A stretch of DNA of 64,000 nt, from positions 672,001 to 736,000 of the forward strand of contig OZ247587.1 of assembly GCA_965233865.1 (NCBI GenBank), written 5' to 3'. Numbering within the stretch: position 1 is the stretch's first letter; each line of letters begins with the position of its first letter. A program made the translations under genes and the position numbers. The notes beneath the pieces are model-generated. The model was given only the letters and a program-made list of their open reading frames with translations, did no database searches and was not told the origin of the DNA. Source of the stretch: Candidatus Neptunichlamydia sp. (GTDB lineage: Bacteria; Chlamydiota; Chlamydiia; Chlamydiales; Simkaniaceae). Shown here one piece after another: positions 21,014 through 27,200 of the stretch.

Positions 21014-22552
21014 CTAGACTAGTTTTTCTTCAAGATTTTCGAGCGCTTCCACCTCCCTATCAAGATGGATCTTGGCGCTATCATAAAGCTCACGATAAGT
21101 CATTGCCTTTTCAAAGTCAAGGTTAGACCCTCCCATTTCTTTTCGATAATCCTCAACCTGCCTTTTGATCACTTCAACGTGAGATGTTCTTTCCTCGTAG
21201 AAGGCTTCTAAAGCATCTCCCCCTAAAATACCTTCTTTTTTATTAAAAATAAAGCTACGAAGGCTTGCAAAATCTCTTTCAAATTTGTGAATTTCAACTG
21301 CGGAAAGGTTCAATAATTCGTAAGATTTTTTCAGCTCTTCTTCTCTCTTTTCTAAGTCTTCTAAAGCTGTCTCGCTCTCATTTTTGATCCATTGAGTAAG
21401 CTTTTCCTTTAGATCATCAACTTCTTTTAAAGCCGCTGCTTTTTTCTCATCAACTTTAGCTTTGAGTTGATCGAGAACCCCACTGCGAGCTTTTTGAATG
21501 CGATCTTTCAAAATTTTTATATGATCACGACTTAGCGCAGCTCCTTTCATTGCTTCCTGAAGAGCATTTGACTCTCCTAGAACTTTGGACCTCTCTTGAT
21601 TTTCTGAATTTGCGCAAAAAGCTTCAAAAGCCTCGACTTTAGGAAGAAGCTCATCAAAATTCTTCTTCTGCTCTTCAAACCGCTCACCCATCTCAGCGCG
21701 CCGCTCAGTCTCCTTTTCCTTAATTTTGTCCCATCCTTCACTGAGTATTTTTCGCGATTTTGTAAAAGCTTGGGTGTTCAAGGTTAGAATCTTTGCAAAG
21801 CCTTGAAAAGTTTTGATCTCATTTCGAATGACATAGTAGGGAGCGTCGTATTTATCTCCTTTTTCAGGAAAACGTTTCTTTACAAAAGCTTCCACATCTG
21901 CAATAAATGCGTCACTAATTGCTTTGACCAACTCTTTCCGTTTTGGGAAAATCTGATCTCCTAACTTGGAAAGACGCTTTAGGATTTTATTCTTATGGCT
22001 TATTCTCATATCGATTGCCAAGATTTCCTTTCGCAAAGAATCAAGGCGGGAGATTAAGGTCTTTAATAGGGAAAGTTCTCTCTGAACGGAGAGATACTCC
22101 TCCTCTTTGATCTCGAGAGTTTCTACATCTTTAGGGAAAACAACCGAGGCTATCTGCTCCGCTAAGCGGCCGTAATGATCTAAATCAGCTTCTAGAGCTT
22201 CAATTGCAAGTTCTACTTGTTCAACAGAAAATGCTGCTTGTTCGTCTTTGATCTCTTTTAAACGACGTGCTTCATCTCCAAGCTCAGCGTACTCAGCCCA
22301 GAGATGGTTCCGTTTAATCGGATTCATCTGCTCTTTAAAAAGAGGACCACAGAGTTTTTTGACATCCCAAAAATCCTTCAGGGTAACCCCATCAGGTTTC
22401 GAAAGAACTGATCTCATGAAATCGAGGGCAAGCCGTACCTTATCTTCTATCTCTTTAGCAGATTCAAAAGACTCTCGAAATCCTTTGAATTCTTCCGATT
22501 CCATTGGAGGCTTTTTCTCTTTTTCTTTTTTTTCAGTATTTTCTGTTTCCAT
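21014..22552 (-). CDS. Conserved chlamydial coiled-coil protein (CT768-like)
   Basis: 512-aa helical, charged ORF between miaA and the rsfS cluster as in chlamydial gene order; ends GGSNLDFEKAM. Confidence 0.75.
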   Translation of the reverse strand: METENTEKKEKEKKPPMESEEFKGFRESFESAKEIEDKVRLALDFMRSVLSKPDGVTLKDFWDVKKLCGPLFKEQMNPIKRNHLWAEYAELGDEARRLKEIKDEQAAFSVEQVELAIEALEADLDHYGRLAEQIASVVFPKDVETLEIKEEEYLSVQRELSLLKTLISRLDSLRKEILAIDMRISHKNKILKRLSKLGDQIFPKRKELVKAISDAFIADVEAFVKKRFPEKGDKYDAPYYVIRNEIKTFQGFAKILTLNTQAFTKSRKILSEGWDKIKEKETERRAEMGERFEEQKKNFDELLPKVEAFEAFCANSENQERSKVLGESNALQEAMKGAALSRDHIKILKDRIQKARSGVLDQLKAKVDEKKAAALKEVDDLKEKLTQWIKNESETALEDLEKREEELKKSYELLNLSAVEIHKFERDFASLRSFIFNKKEGILGGDALEAFYEERTSHVEVIKRQVEDYRKEMGGSNLDFEKAMTYRELYDSAKIHLDREVEALENLEEKLV

Positions 22553-24158: not shown

Positions 24159-24303
24159 CCGTTTTCTCTTGTATTCCCTTACGATTAAATTTATGAATTT
24201 ATTTTTCGCGAATGGTATTAGTCTGTCTAGCAAAATATCGGAGAGCTATTAATGAGCTCGCTGATCCAACTAGAGCTACTTAAGTAACTGCCAGCACTAG
24301 AAC

Positions 24304-25418
24304 TTAAATTTTAATCTTAAGATAAATCCAATTCGAAAGCTTTGGAAAAACAGAAGAATGATGCTTACCAAAATTTATCTTTTCATAAACTTTATCTCCG
24401 TTAATTTTTTGCCCTTGATAATCATAGTTTATCCCATAGATTGCAGCAGCATCAATATCCTCAAAAATTTCATTGCATGAAGGACAGAGTGATGTAGCGC
24501 AAATTTTATTCAGGTTGATGTTCCCTGTCCCTTTATGTATCCAAAGTCTTTTAGGGAAATTTTGGCACTCAATGTGTTGACAACGCCCTAATATATATAG
24601 TCCTAATTTATATTCTTTTGGAAAATTATTTCTTTCTCTGTCTTCTGAATCTAATGATTCTTCGTCTGTTGAACCATCGAAGTAATTACAAGTCCTTTGG
24701 TAGCACTCTACCTGTCTAATTTGATGTTTTTTTTCAGAGTGTCTGCTAAGCTCTTGAGCAGTATCAAAGGTAATTTTTGCTTCTTTTTGAAATATAAACT
24801 CTCTAAGGCCTTGGTCTGTTATGGAAGCCTTTTCCATCCTTTTCGTTTGCAAGTGTGTATAACCAGGATATCTTCTAGCGCCAAACCATCGCTTTTTTAA
24901 AAGGGTGTAACCAGAAAGAGCAGCTGCTTGAACAATATTGTAAGCATATCCTTGGTAAAAAGCATTTTTTTGACCAGGTTGTATTAGTGTTATATGAATA
25001 CAATCACTATCTCGTTGGATTTTTCTGCAAGAGCTAAAAAAATCCCTAATAATTTCTGGAAGAGTTTAGCCTTTTAGGTCTTGCCCGTCATGAGGGCAAT
25101 TCCAGTAAATTCTAAAAAATACATACATTTAAATTGTTGATAGTGATGGAGTTTTGTGCCATCAACCCCCAGGACAACTTTTACGCCATTTGCTGCCAAT
25201 TTCTTAATATTACACAAAATCCTTGGATGCTAAAGGTCTCTATATGCCTTAATTTCTGTTGCAATAATCGAGTACCTAAGGAACCCTTGACTAGATTTTT
25301 CAAGCTGTTTTTGAACAAAAGATAATCCGTAAGAAAAATCCCCCTCTCCGATAAACAGCCTGGTTTTAGCGGTATTATTATAAAAAACATTGGAAATTCT
25401 ATAAAACTCTATAGACAT
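24304..25418 (-). pseudogene. DUF2431/Bmt5-like SAM methyltransferase fused to a Cys-rich domain, disrupted
   Basis: Reconstructed motifs LFIGEGDFSY, NIKKLAANGVKVVLGVDGTKLH, RIYWNCPHDG, RRYPGYTH, then GLYILGRCQHIEC...CPSC. Stops at 25230 and 25066 and one frameshift near 25115. Confidence 0.75.
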
Positions 25419-25502
25419 TTTAAGGAACCTTTTACTAGAGATTGAAATCAGAATTAATAGTGCACTCTAAATAAACCCATTGATCCAAATTATGAAAAAA
25501 AT

Positions 25503-26281
25503 TCTTGCTTCACAACAGACCTTATTTAAATTCAAGTAAGCTCCCCTTTGTGTGTCCAGATAGGTTTATTGCCTATATTACATTCTGCATTTTTGCAAGC
25601 AGCCAGTACATATAGCCCAGTACAGCGCAGAGAGCTTATGATAAGCATCTCTATAAATTGAGACATCTTGTAGAAAATGCTTTTTTACATTTGAAGCGAT
25701 GGAGAGGAATTGCTACACGCTATGCTAAGCACACATCTTCTTTCTTGGCTGCGGTTCAGATCAGATGTTTGGCTTTATGGGTAGAAATCTCGTGACTACA
25801 CTATCTAGGAGCTCTGCTATCAAAATCTATAAACTCTGAGCATTCTAAATCAACAAATGAGAGTGTTGCCATGGTTCCACCCCTTAATCTAGGATTCATT
25901 TGAATAGTGCTATCAGGCATGATGTTGTAACTGGCGAAGAGTTGCAAAAAGCTTCCTAGAAGAAGACAAATAGTGGGAATTGGAAGGAATGCCTGTTTTT
26001 TAAAAAGTAAGCTCTTTTATCTCTCCTATTTTTGTCTTACCCCTTTTTTCTAGATCCAAAGAAAGCGTTCTTTCCACGGTTTTCATGAAAATTTTAAATG
26101 AAGGTCTCCTTGATAAGGAGTCATTATTATTGGTTTCCTCAACATAAGAAACGTTCCTATTCCTGGGAGTTAAAAAACTATATAATCCCGGTTCTTGCGG
26201 AGGATATTTCCCATAATTGTCATTTGGTCTATACTCCATAGATCTTCCCATAGGAAAAGAGATCTTGTTTATAGAGTTCAT
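25503..26281 (-). pseudogene. Ubiquitin-like domain (RLRGG) plus Cys-rich domain gene, disrupted by IS5, stop and frameshifts
   Basis: FKIFMKTVERTLSLDL...IGEIKELTF*KTGIPSNSHYL / ASYNIMPDSTIQMNPRLRGG (25876-25890)...FDSRAP, then the IS, then GLYVLAACKNAECN...WTHKG / LNLNKVCC. Confidence 0.75.
25618..25808 (+). mobile_element. IS5-family 3' remnant
   Basis: AYDKHLYKLRHLVENAFLHLKRWRGIATRYAKHTSSFLAAVQIRCLALW*, followed by ACTACACTATCTAG ending in a CTAG target-type sequence. Confidence 0.85.
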
Positions 26282-26633: not shown

Positions 26634-27200
26634 ATGGTTGATATCCATCCAATCCCAGATTCTGAGATGCCCGGAACAACACCAAAGGCTAGCGCCTCAA
26701 ACTTTCAAAGTGAAGCGTTTGGAGATAAGGCTAACGCCTTCTATTCCTGGTATCAGTCAATCCGTCAGCCAAATTCTCCAGTCGAGGGATACCATGGATT
26801 GCAATATATTATGAATATATCTGAGCAAGAAACTGCAACTAAAGAGGAAGGAACCCTCGCTGCTGAAAAACTCAGTCAATTAATGGAAGAGATCGATGAA
26901 GGAACCCAAACCCTCGACAAAATTCCTCATGAAGTAGAAAAGATCGTCGACAGTCTCATTAACCAAAATGCAAAGAGCCGAATCGTGATGCAAGCAACTA
27001 AAATCCAGATTTCTGTCAATCTTTCCGAATCTAATACACCTGAAGAAATCCATCAGGTAATAAACTCTCTTCTTGGAAGAGTCACAAAGGAGATGCCACA
27101 TATTAAGGCTGAAGAAATTAGCCGCACTCTTCAGGATGCTATTGACCATCCAGAAGGGTCTAAGAGTCTTCTGCAGAAGGTTCTGTCACTCTTGAATTAA
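26634..27200 (+). CDS. Hypothetical protein, possible T3SS substrate
   Basis: AAGGGGGA SD; Pro/Ser/Thr-rich disordered N-terminus followed by a helical body. Confidence 0.7.
   Translation: MVDIHPIPDSEMPGTTPKASASNFQSEAFGDKANAFYSWYQSIRQPNSPVEGYHGLQYIMNISEQETATKEEGTLAAEKLSQLMEEIDEGTQTLDKIPHEVEKIVDSLINQNAKSRIVMQATKIQISVNLSESNTPEEIHQVINSLLGRVTKEMPHIKAEEISRTLQDAIDHPEGSKSLLQKVLSLLN

What the first reader, a model, noticed from the sequence alone, without database searches (positions are those of the whole stretch)
24304..25418. Eukaryote-like Bmt5/DUF2431 rRNA methyltransferase relic: a possible host-ribosome-modifying effector
Seen: repairing two stops and one frameshift gives a ~370-aa protein with GEGDFSY, GVDGTKL, IYWNCPH and YPGY.H motifs plus a Cys-rich C-terminal domain. 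Established: GEG(N/D)FSF, VDAT.L, FNFPH and YPGY characterise DUF2431, whose yeast member Bmt5 makes m3U in 25S rRNA. Inference: intact orthologs may be secreted RNA methyltransferases acting on host RNA.
Basis: partly seen in the sequence, partly recalled or inferred. Interest (0 to 1): 0.7.

Follow-up and report, generated by a model that had tools for sequence, protein, structure and literature searches.

The report
Dead chlamydial Bmt5-like methyltransferase gene
This is a recently broken gene for a Bmt5-type RNA methyltransferase of an intracellular chlamydia-like bacterium, joined to an unnamed four-cysteine domain that its relatives attach to ubiquitin-like and other eukaryote-type parts, so it is most likely a discarded host-directed protein.

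Summary
On the minus strand, 25418 to 24304, lies one gene broken by a TAG (25230-25232), a frame change at a T6 run (25114-25119) and a TAA (25066-25068). Its two halves match Pfam PF10354 (BMT5-like) end to end (E 7.5e-12 and 2.4e-10). Contigs of two public runs show the same letters across all three lesions.

It belongs to a large chlamydial subfamily. That subfamily is patchy: 44 of 401 genomes sampled from the phylum. It has several copies per genome, is fused to LRR, ankyrin and other parts, and is far from fungal Bmt5 (30% identity over 109 residues). All four copies in this genome are dead.

The "Cys-rich C-terminal domain" is an unnamed family of its own. It has 2464 representative clusters, no Pfam model and no solved-fold match. 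It sits behind ubiquitin, U-box, PARP, caspase, patatin and protease domains. 46 of 149 representatives end in a CaaX-like prenylation motif.

I read the gene as a decayed host-directed effector. The effector reading is indirect, and a host rRNA target is untested. The locus itself is a relic.

The parts
24304..25418 (-). Whole relic: BMT5-like methyltransferase, acidic tail and C-terminal 4-Cys module, 371 residues when read through with X at three breaks
   Evidence: G+C is 34.2% against a genome mean of 41.0 +/- 2.9, which is in the lowest 2.4% of windows of equal size.
24853..25358 (-). Methyltransferase domain (PF10354), carrying GEGDFSY, GVDGTKL, RIYWNCPH and RYPGYTH
   Evidence: model 1-75 and 78-166 of 168; for motif coordinates. 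The relic keeps 53 of 61 columns that are invariant in ten intact short-type relatives.
25230..25232 (-). In-frame TAG (first break), in a variable stretch of the family alignment
   Evidence: same letters in run contigs.
25114..25119 (-). Run of six T where the reading frame changes (second break)
   Evidence: the Pfam match goes on from model position 75 to 78 across the change. X1 and X2 contigs span it without gaps.
25066..25068 (-). In-frame TAA (third break), in a column that is invariant in intact relatives
   Evidence: same letters in run contigs.
24640..24687 (-). Acidic Ser/Asp-rich tail (NYFDGSTDEESLDSED). In intact relatives this is the C-terminus; here it is internal and has 3 changes at invariant columns.
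   Evidence: A tail pattern is found in 54 of 120 family proteins.
24307..24639 (-). C-terminal module, 111 residues, with invariant G13, C20, C25, C52, C55. Predicted as a beta sandwich. No CaaX end.
   Evidence: Alignment A2; model pLDDT 88.8; 2464 representative clusters at E <= 1e-3; no Pfam or NCBIfam match.
25445..25640 (-). Second, heavily decayed copy of the module (GLYVLAACKNAECNIGNKPIWTHKGE), cut on its N-terminal side by the IS piece
   Evidence: E 0.0019, 5 stops inside; profile E 1e-4.
25629..25808 (+). End piece of an insertion sequence, encoding the C-terminal end of a DDE transposase
   Evidence: Weak Pfam DDE_Tnp_1 and DDE_Tnp_1_2 matches (E 7e-4 to 9e-4). 19 blastn hits in the genome including this one, 16 of them 100 bases or longer, the listed other copies about 98% alike. 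Depth jump and loose ends at 25629 and 25808.
24166..24303 (.). Left edge of the island. DNA likeness to same-genus genomes stops at about 24165. 24184-24221 resembles a short repeat with 12 copies in G011.

Best explanation
The locus is a recently inactivated gene, with no present function, for a short-type chlamydial BMT5-like class I SAM-dependent methyltransferase. It is joined in frame to a C-terminal four-cysteine beta-sandwich module.

Shown: the gene is broken three times. It keeps the SAM-loop and catalytic-loop motifs of PF10354. It lies in a low-G+C, IS-scarred stretch at a synteny breakpoint. Every copy of both families in this genome is dead.

Inferred: intact relatives are host-directed proteins of obligate intracellular chlamydiae. 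They would be delivered into the eukaryotic host cell, probably by the type III system. By analogy with yeast Bmt5 they would methylate a base, possibly N3 of uridine, in a host RNA. Large-subunit rRNA is the only precedent for a target. The module is inferred to be a targeting or binding part that works next to host membranes, because a third of its family ends in a prenylation motif. This genome has discarded the whole set during IS-driven reduction, perhaps after a change of host.
For: Broken gene and family.

Recent decay: 53 of 61 invariant columns are kept.

Not housekeeping:
- PF10354 is found in 44 of 401 sampled genomes of the phylum and 25 of 212 genera. It is in 0 of 25 genomes of genus g35 and 0 of 14 control genomes.
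- It is found in 3 of 16 other genomes of the same genus.
- All four copies in this 96%-complete genome are fragments.

Chlamydial subfamily:
- 99 of the 120 listed proteins score E <= 2.6e-24. Those with names are chlamydial, apart from one Verrucomicrobia MAG, one Gammaproteobacteria MAG, one 'uncultured bacterium' and six rows labelled as eukaryotes.
- 16 of 19 loci from the GTDB scan have chlamydial titles.

Effector-like build: paralogs stand in tandem (L005/L008, L028). There are fusions to LRR and ankyrin repeats and to about 500-residue N-terminal regions.

Module partners:
- Of 15 chlamydial ORFs: ubiquitin 5, PARP 3, U-box 1, trypsin-like protease 1, ankyrin 1.
- Of 122 representatives: ubiquitin 56, plus caspase, U-box, PARP and patatin with ankyrin, one each.

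Prenylation motif: a CaaX-like end occurs in 46 of 149 module representatives, against 1 of 120 in the methyltransferase set. It occurs in 4 of 19 modules taken from chlamydial genomes.

Injectisome: an SctV gene (E 1.7e-219) lies next to an HrpJ/CopN-type gatekeeper gene (E 1.8e-16) in this genome.

Fold: the relative P0003 folds as a class I methyltransferase (pLDDT 90.7; Foldseek matches to SAM methyltransferases at E about 1e-7).

Precedent: Bmt5 makes m3U2634 of 25S rRNA (PMC3950682, passages read).
Against: No experiment or RNA data bear on any member of the family. Secretion, substrate and site are all inferred. The structural matches mix RNA and small-molecule methyltransferases and do not pick a substrate. 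The window's protein has no CaaX end.

No other protein with both the methyltransferase and the module was found: 0 of 16 parsed family ORFs, 0 of 122 module representatives, and no hit covering more than 58% of piece B. The fusion may therefore be an accident of decay and may never have worked.

Some module bearers come from protist transcriptomes (Cochliopodium, Protocruzia). Part of the CaaX signal could therefore come from true eukaryotic proteins.

Low G+C could reflect decay rather than foreign origin.
Confidence: 0.6

Rival explanations
1. The family is host-directed, but the substrate is not host rRNA. Intact relatives would methylate another RNA (tRNA, mRNA), a protein or a small molecule in the host cell.
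For: Chlamydial members are only about 30% identical to fungal BMT5-like proteins over 109 residues. They form their own clades. They carry a structured C-terminal extension and an acidic tail that were not aligned with the fungal hits. Fold matches include small-molecule methyltransferases.
Against: The only characterised member of PF10354 is an rRNA uridine-N3 methyltransferase. The four family motifs are kept.
Confidence: 0.25
2. The in-frame join of methyltransferase and module is a by-product of decay. A deletion fused a dying short-type methyltransferase gene to the module end of a neighbouring gene, so no such two-part protein ever functioned.
For: No second example of the fusion was found. 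In relatives the acidic tail is the C-terminus. Here three of its invariant columns are changed. Only about ten residues separate the tail from the module. A second module relic and an IS piece lie next door.
Against: The 253-codon frame runs open from the TAA to the end. The module keeps all five invariant residues of A2. Only part of the module family could be examined: 122 of the 150 listed representatives, out of 2464 hits.
Confidence: 0.35
3. It is a former housekeeping enzyme that modified the bacterium's own rRNA or tRNA and became dispensable.
For: It is a methyltransferase of an RNA-modifying family. No signal for export can be read from the sequence with these tools.
Against: The distribution is patchy (44 of 401 genomes). 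There are up to three matches per genome and repeat-domain fusions. It was not found in 25 of 25 genomes of genus g35 or in 14 of 14 control genomes. All copies are dead in a 96%-complete genome.
Confidence: 0.07
4. The lesions are assembly or sequencing errors and the gene is intact.
For: One of the three lesions lies at a homopolymer run, a common site of error.
Against: Contigs of X1 and X2 cover all three sites with 0 differences at depths of 2599 and 1400. Two of the three lesions are substitutions to different stop codons. The three other family copies in the genome are fragments too.
Confidence: 0.03

Closest known systems
Saccharomyces cerevisiae Bmt5 (Yil096c), 25S rRNA m3U2634 methyltransferase, founder of Pfam PF10354 / DUF2431
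   Same: Same Pfam family, matched over the full model length. It shares the glycine-rich SAM loop GEG(N/D)FS, the D(A/G)T.L strand, the (F/W)N.PH loop and Y.GY.H. The fold is Rossmann-like (PMC3950682 passages).
   Different: It is not an ortholog. A fungal BMT5-like protein (P0116) is 30% identical to the intact relative P0003 over 109 residues. Fungal members score E about 1e-12 against the chlamydial profile and cover only its first half. Chlamydial members add a structured C-terminal extension with an acidic tail. They occur in bacteria, and here the gene is fused to a module and broken. Activity is untested.
Short-type chlamydial 'DUF2431 / Rossmann-like fold-containing' proteins (for example two paralogs named for Candidatus Protochlamydia amoebophila, P0026 and P0027)
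   Same: These are the nearest relatives: 41-51% identity, and 44-55% over the matched part. They share the clade in the tree (53 rows, SH-aLRT 93), the motifs and the tail.
   Different: They are intact, 270-350 residues long, and end at the acidic tail. None carries the module.
Bacterial effectors that use host prenylation through a C-terminal CaaX box (Legionella AnkB and others; recalled from memory, and the review PMC7542358 was seen only in a search listing)
   Same: In the module family, 46 of 149 representatives end in C-aliphatic-aliphatic-X, often with L or F last. Their N-terminal partners are eukaryote-type domains.
   Different: The window's protein has no CaaX end. Prenylation of any member is untested. 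The module itself has no counterpart that I could find in Pfam or the PDB.
Secreted methyltransferase effectors of intracellular bacteria (chlamydial NUE, Legionella RomA/LegAS4: SET-domain histone methyltransferases; recalled from memory, no call)
   Same: The idea is the same: an injected SAM-dependent methyltransferase of eukaryotic type.
   Different: The fold is different (SET against class I Rossmann-like), and the known substrate is protein, not RNA.
ORF158L of Singapore grouper iridovirus, a histone H3-binding protein (PDB 3rj2)
   Same: It is the best structural match of the module model. Both are beta sandwiches.
   Different: The match is weak: Foldseek E 0.07; Z 4.6, rmsd 3.9 over 78 residues, 6% identity, with 0 of 48161 chains reaching Z 5. 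This is a common arrangement at most.

Membership tests
Pfam PF10354 BMT5-like (DUF2431) | Profile match above the curated gathering score | tested here: met
   46.3 and 41.4 bits for the two halves against a cut-off of 24.7. Together they cover model positions 1-166 of 168.
Pfam PF10354 BMT5-like (DUF2431) | Family motifs: GEG(N/D)FS(F/Y), (V/I)D(A/G)T.L, (F/W)N.PH, Y.GY.H | tested here: met
   GEGDFSY, GVDGTKL, YWNCPH and YPGYTH are all present. The same columns are shared with a fungal member. The consensus wording is partly recalled and partly read from A3/A4.
Pfam PF10354 BMT5-like (DUF2431) | Class I Rossmann-like SAM methyltransferase fold | tested here: met
   Tested on the intact relative P0003, not on the relic. 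The model has pLDDT 90.7 and pTM 0.90. At least 500 PDB matches have E <= 0.001, and the top rows are SAM methyltransferases.
Pfam PF10354 BMT5-like (DUF2431) | Intact reading frame (a working member) | tested here: not met
   Two stops and one frame change.
Bmt5 orthologs (25S/28S rRNA m3U methyltransferase) | Orthology to yeast or fungal Bmt5 | tested here: not met
   Fungal proteins score E 8.8e-13 or weaker against the chlamydial profile, compared with 1e-138 to 1e-24 inside the subfamily. They cover only profile positions about 21-143. Identity is 30% over 109 residues.
Bmt5 orthologs (25S/28S rRNA m3U methyltransferase) | N3-uridine methylation of large-subunit rRNA | not testable with these tools
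   This needs biochemistry or modification mapping.
Type III secreted effectors of Chlamydiota | A type III apparatus in the same genome | tested here: met
   SctV/FHIPEP at G000:761946-763940 (E 1.7e-219), with an HrpJ-type gatekeeper gene next to it (E 1.8e-16).
Type III secreted effectors of Chlamydiota | Translocation of the protein into the host cell | not testable with these tools
   No predictor or assay is available here, and no RNA or protein data exist.
CaaX-prenylated host-targeted proteins | C-terminal Cys-aliphatic-aliphatic-X | tested here: not met
   The window's protein ends ...YLKIKI. The motif is in 46 of 149 representatives of the module family.
Unnamed 4-Cys C-terminal module (this report) | Profile match with invariant G and four Cys (C-x4-C ... 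C-x2-C), at the C-terminus | tested here: met
   The window sequence is the first row of A2. It scores E 2.8e-30 in the library search as P0001 and E 7e-35 in the genome scan.
C2H2 zinc fingers (Pfam zf_C2H2_10, zf-C2H2_4) | Profile match above the gathering score | tested here: not met
   13.6-14.7 bits against cut-offs of 25.6-27, E 0.04-0.11.

The most novel reading that the evidence does not exclude
Environmental chlamydiae inject Bmt5-type methyltransferases that write non-native base methylations, for example m3U, into host ribosomal or other RNA. The unnamed four-cysteine beta-sandwich module would be a new host-membrane-proximal targeting domain shared by a large set of prenylated chlamydial effectors: ubiquitin-like, U-box, PARP, caspase and patatin. 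The window preserves a one-off union of the two.
Probability: 0.2. Interest if true: 0.8.

Novelty: new variant of a known kind. Interest (0 to 1): 0.5.

Why it matters
Bacterial effectors that methylate host proteins are known. An injected RNA base methyltransferase of the Bmt5 type has not been described in the literature I could search: 'DUF2431', 'PF10354' and 'Bmt5' with 'effector' gave nothing on bacteria. If the intact relatives act on host RNA, they would be a new way for an intracellular bacterium to tune host translation. This can be tested directly with natural intact genes from cultivable amoeba symbionts.

Separately, the C-terminal module is a large domain family without a name: 2464 representative clusters, no Pfam model and no solved-fold match. 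Its partners and prenylation motifs mark it as a likely organiser of host-directed proteins. The window's gene itself is only a fossil. Its value is as a pointer, and as an example of a whole effector family being purged from an IS-ridden genome.

Tried and rejected
- NCBIfam gave no family for either half.
- Sequence search of the PDB with the family profile gave nothing usable (best E 0.82).
- Foldseek and VIA-align gave no convincing fold match for the module.
- The protein atlas gave only leads: unnamed eukaryote-labelled clusters at 0.93-0.94 and ubiquitin-carrying clusters at 0.78. The query's recognition value was below the usual threshold.
- The 'longer' search with the module profile was crowded out: 3 hits among 8000 scored candidates.
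- No RNA holder is listed for the locus, so nothing can be said about expression.
- Earlier findings of this scan: nothing by place, words or sequence.
- Literature: no paper on bacterial PF10354 proteins, or on CaaX or prenylation in Protochlamydia, was seen in the listings.
- I first suspected the genus Rhabdochlamydia from the IS load. The G+C figures in PMC9723776 (passages) do not fit, and I dropped the naming.
- I rejected a programmed frameshift or stop read-through. There are three lesions of three kinds, and neighbouring genes end normally under table 11.
- Searches failed on a frame slip of mine and were corrected.

Full report
**1. What is there**

On the minus strand, from the ATG at 25418 to the TAA at 24304, lies one gene that is broken three times:
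- a TAG at 25230-25232;
- a change of reading frame at a run of six T at 25114-25119;
- a TAA at 25066-25068.

Read through with X at each break, it gives 371 residues. The first piece matches Pfam PF10354 (BMT5-like) at model positions 1-75 (E 7.5e-12, 46.3 bits). The second piece matches positions 78-166 of 168 (E 2.4e-10, 41.4 bits). The cut-off is 24.7 bits. The two halves meet exactly at the frame change, so this was one gene. NCBIfam has no model for it.

**2. Are the lesions real?**

Contigs assembled from three public runs of one study hold the locus. X1 covers 24200-25656 and X2 covers 24200-25475, each with 0 other letters and 0 gaps, at word depths of 2599 and 1400. The listed X3 pieces also show no differences, but none spans 25096-25126. 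These runs may be the source of the assembly. They rule out a consensus slip but are not independent isolates. No RNA run is listed.

The relic keeps 53 of the 61 columns that are invariant in ten intact relatives. One of the eight losses is the TAA, and three are in the acidic tail. Inactivation is therefore recent.

**3. The family**

- *Nearest relatives.* A word-indexed search with piece B found 9 relatives besides the window's own ORF. Identity was 44-55% over the methyltransferase part and coverage was at most 58%. These are 270-470-residue proteins. Where named, they come from Parachlamydiaceae or Chlamydiales MAGs, plus one Trichoplax entry. They end shortly after a conserved acidic tail of the type YY.CS(S/T)D(E/D)DSSD.
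- *Size and separation of the subfamily.* A profile of ten such proteins (A3) found 151 proteins at E <= 1e-3 among 4603 candidates. Of the 120 listed, 99 score E <= 2.6e-24. The other 21, mostly fungal BMT5-like proteins, score 8.8e-13 or weaker and cover only the first half of the profile. A direct comparison gives 30% identity over 109 residues. The gene is a true member of PF10354 but not an ortholog of yeast Bmt5.
- *The precedent.* Yeast Bmt5 makes m3U2634 in helix 81 of 25S rRNA, is nucleolar, and loses activity with a SAM-pocket mutation (PMC3950682, passages read). The animal m3U is made by a different enzyme at a different site (PMC11641110, passages).
- *Fold.* An AlphaFold model of the intact relative P0003 (66-row alignment, pLDDT 90.7, pTM 0.90) is a class I methyltransferase with a well-ordered C-terminal extension. 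Its PDB matches are SAM methyltransferases of mixed substrate, so they do not pick a substrate.

**4. Distribution**

- PF10354 was found in 4 of 41 nearest genomes, counting this one. That is 3 of 16 others of the genus and 0 of 24 single genomes of other genera.
- It was found in 44 of 401 genomes sampled from the phylum, counting this one, and in 25 of 212 genera. All carriers are in the same order. None of 25 genomes of genus g35 has it, and no control genome does (0 of 14).
- A scan of one genome per GTDB species gave 19 loci. The scan was limited to two peptide patterns, so it finds close relatives only. 16 loci carry chlamydial titles. The other three are a 'Verrucomicrobia' MAG, an 'uncultured bacterium' and a cyanobacterium at 28% identity.
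- There are two builds. One is short (about 270-360 residues). The other is long (about 650-1050 residues), with some 500 N-terminal residues that Pfam does not recognise. There are also fusions to LRR and ankyrin repeats.
- In a tree of 120 rows the relic falls in the short-type clade (53 rows, SH-aLRT 93; nearest row P0003, 49% identity). The intact copies of the same genus fall in the long-type clade (34 rows, support 95).
- Rows labelled Trichoplax, Bemisia, Sarracenia and protist transcriptomes are nested among the bacterial and unnamed rows of the subfamily. I left out rows that did not span profile positions 30-230, which removed the fungal proteins and all fragments.

**5. This genome has lost the whole family**

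A six-frame profile scan of the 1.83-Mb genome finds no intact member. It finds only:
- the window relic;
- a 169-codon fragment at 216428-216934, next to a transposase gene;
- an 89-codon fragment at 205421-205687;
- a 71-codon N-terminal fragment at 1349648-1349860.

All three fragments best match short-type rows.

**6. The Cys-rich end is a module in its own right**

- *Occurrence in chlamydial genomes.* The last 116 residues match 19 of 400 genomes of the order, counting this one, and 15 of 216 genera. They often stand in tandem arrays: G167 has 8 matches and G153 has 5.
- *Partners in chlamydial genomes.* In those genomes the module is always the C-terminal part. Among 15 ORFs the N-terminal partners are ubiquitin (5), PARP (3), U-box/RING (1), trypsin-like protease (1) and ankyrin (1). 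Four have no significant partner. No Pfam family covers the module.
- *Conserved residues and fold.* Nineteen modules align with one invariant Gly and four invariant Cys, spaced C-x4-C and C-x2-C. The model is a nine-strand beta sandwich (pLDDT 88.8). It has no match at E <= 0.001 in the PDB (best 3rj2, E 0.07). None of 48161 chains reaches Z 5 (best Z 4.6).
- *Size of the family.* A profile search of 1.84 billion representatives gives 2464 hits at E <= 1e-3, 998 at 1e-10 and 15 at 1e-30. In most of the 150 listed rows the best match lies at the C-terminal end. A few proteins carry 5-11 repeats of its first half.
- *Partners among representatives.* Of 122 of the 150 listed that I scanned, 56 carry ubiquitin. 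One each carries U-box, PARP, caspase, and patatin with ankyrin. None carries PF10354. I left out 28 short or redundant rows to stay within the size limit.
- *Names.* Where given, they are chlamydial (a Neptunochlamydia 'ubiquitin-like protein', a Parachlamydiaceae MAG, a Simkaniaceae MAG) or protist transcriptomes (Cochliopodium, Protocruzia).
- *Prenylation motif.* 46 of 149 representatives end in a CaaX-like motif, against 1 of 120 in the methyltransferase set used as control. Four of the 19 modules from chlamydial genomes do so. Prenylation is a eukaryotic reaction, so for the bacterial members this points to action inside a host cell.
- The window's copy has no such end.

**7. The fusion and its surroundings**

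The window's gene carries the family's acidic tail (24687-24640) and then runs straight into the module, with about ten residues between them. I found no second protein with both parts, so the join may be unique or an accident of decay.

Directly upstream, at 25445-25640, lies a second module copy in ruins. It has 5 stops and is cut by a 180-base IS end piece (25629-25808). That piece has 19 hits in the genome including itself, 16 of them 100 bases or longer.

DNA likeness to the 16 other genomes of the genus ends at about 24165. None of them has the relic.

The flanking genes are miaA with a STAS gene on one side and typA on the other. They are 3.6 kb apart here, but 0.8-1.07 Mb apart in G006, G010 and G011.

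The relic has 34.2% G+C against a genome mean of 41.0 +/- 2.9.

The relic therefore sits in a small, IS-scarred, low-G+C stretch at a rearrangement breakpoint.

**8. Reading**

Shown:
- a recently broken PF10354 gene;
- a chlamydial, patchy, multi-copy subfamily;
- loss of every copy in this genome;
- a separate, unnamed C-terminal module with eukaryote-type partners and frequent CaaX ends;
- an injectisome export gate with its gatekeeper gene in this genome.

Inferred: the intact relatives act in the host cell, and by analogy with Bmt5 they methylate an RNA base. A host rRNA target is one possibility among several.

A housekeeping role is unlikely, and an assembly error is very unlikely.

**9. 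Limits**

- Nothing here measures secretion, substrate or expression.
- The searches with word or pattern pre-filters miss distant relatives.
- The effector analogies (CaaX effectors, SET-domain methyltransferase effectors) are recalled from memory, not drawn from a paper read here.
- I did not open the supplements of the cited papers.

Noticed in passing
window 25629-25808 (+): A 180-base IS end piece has 19 hits in the genome including itself, 16 of them 100 bases or longer and the listed other copies about 98% alike. In the run contigs its summed depth is roughly 25-100 times that of its flanks, more than the chromosomal copies explain. It may also sit on a plasmid or in other organisms of the sample.
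   Followed up: partly
G000:C1:216428-216934 (+), 205421-205687 (+), 1349648-1349860 (-) (L003, L004): Three further fragments of short-type BMT5-like genes. One lies beside an IS3-type transposase gene. No intact copy exists anywhere in the genome.
   Followed up: yes
P0010, P0082, P0086, P0085, P0098: Proteins labelled Trichoplax adhaerens, Sarracenia, Bemisia tabaci and two protist transcriptomes are nested among the bacterial and unnamed rows of the BMT5-like subfamily. This could be contamination by chlamydial symbionts or gene transfer into eukaryotes. The Trichoplax and Bemisia entries lie on contigs of 9.7 and 54 Mb.
   Followed up: no
L037, L039, L047 and many representatives: Ubiquitin-module proteins keep an RGG-type end of the ubiquitin part just before the linker: 20 of 149 by my pattern. 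Host deubiquitinases might cut the module free.
   Followed up: no
P0122 (1428 aa), P0125, P0140, P0152, P0153, P0197: Long proteins with 5-11 tandem repeats of the first half of the module (profile positions about 5-77) and no Pfam domain. Two lie on contigs of about 1.9 Mb.
   Followed up: no
L005-L008, L010, L019 etc.: Long-type proteins share about 500 N-terminal residues that Pfam does not recognise. These regions have 'DGS' repeat stretches and a basic, Ser-rich linker that looks like a nuclear localisation signal. G013 has two such genes in tandem.
   Followed up: partly
window 24184-24221: A short stretch that resembles a repeat with 12 copies in G011 and one weak second copy in G000. 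It is possibly the end of a mobile element and marks the left edge of the island.
   Followed up: partly
window 21014-22552 (-), 26000-26281 (-), 26634-27200 (+): Three open frames of 512, 93 and 188 residues without any Pfam match. The last two lie inside the low-G+C stretch next to the relic.
   Followed up: no
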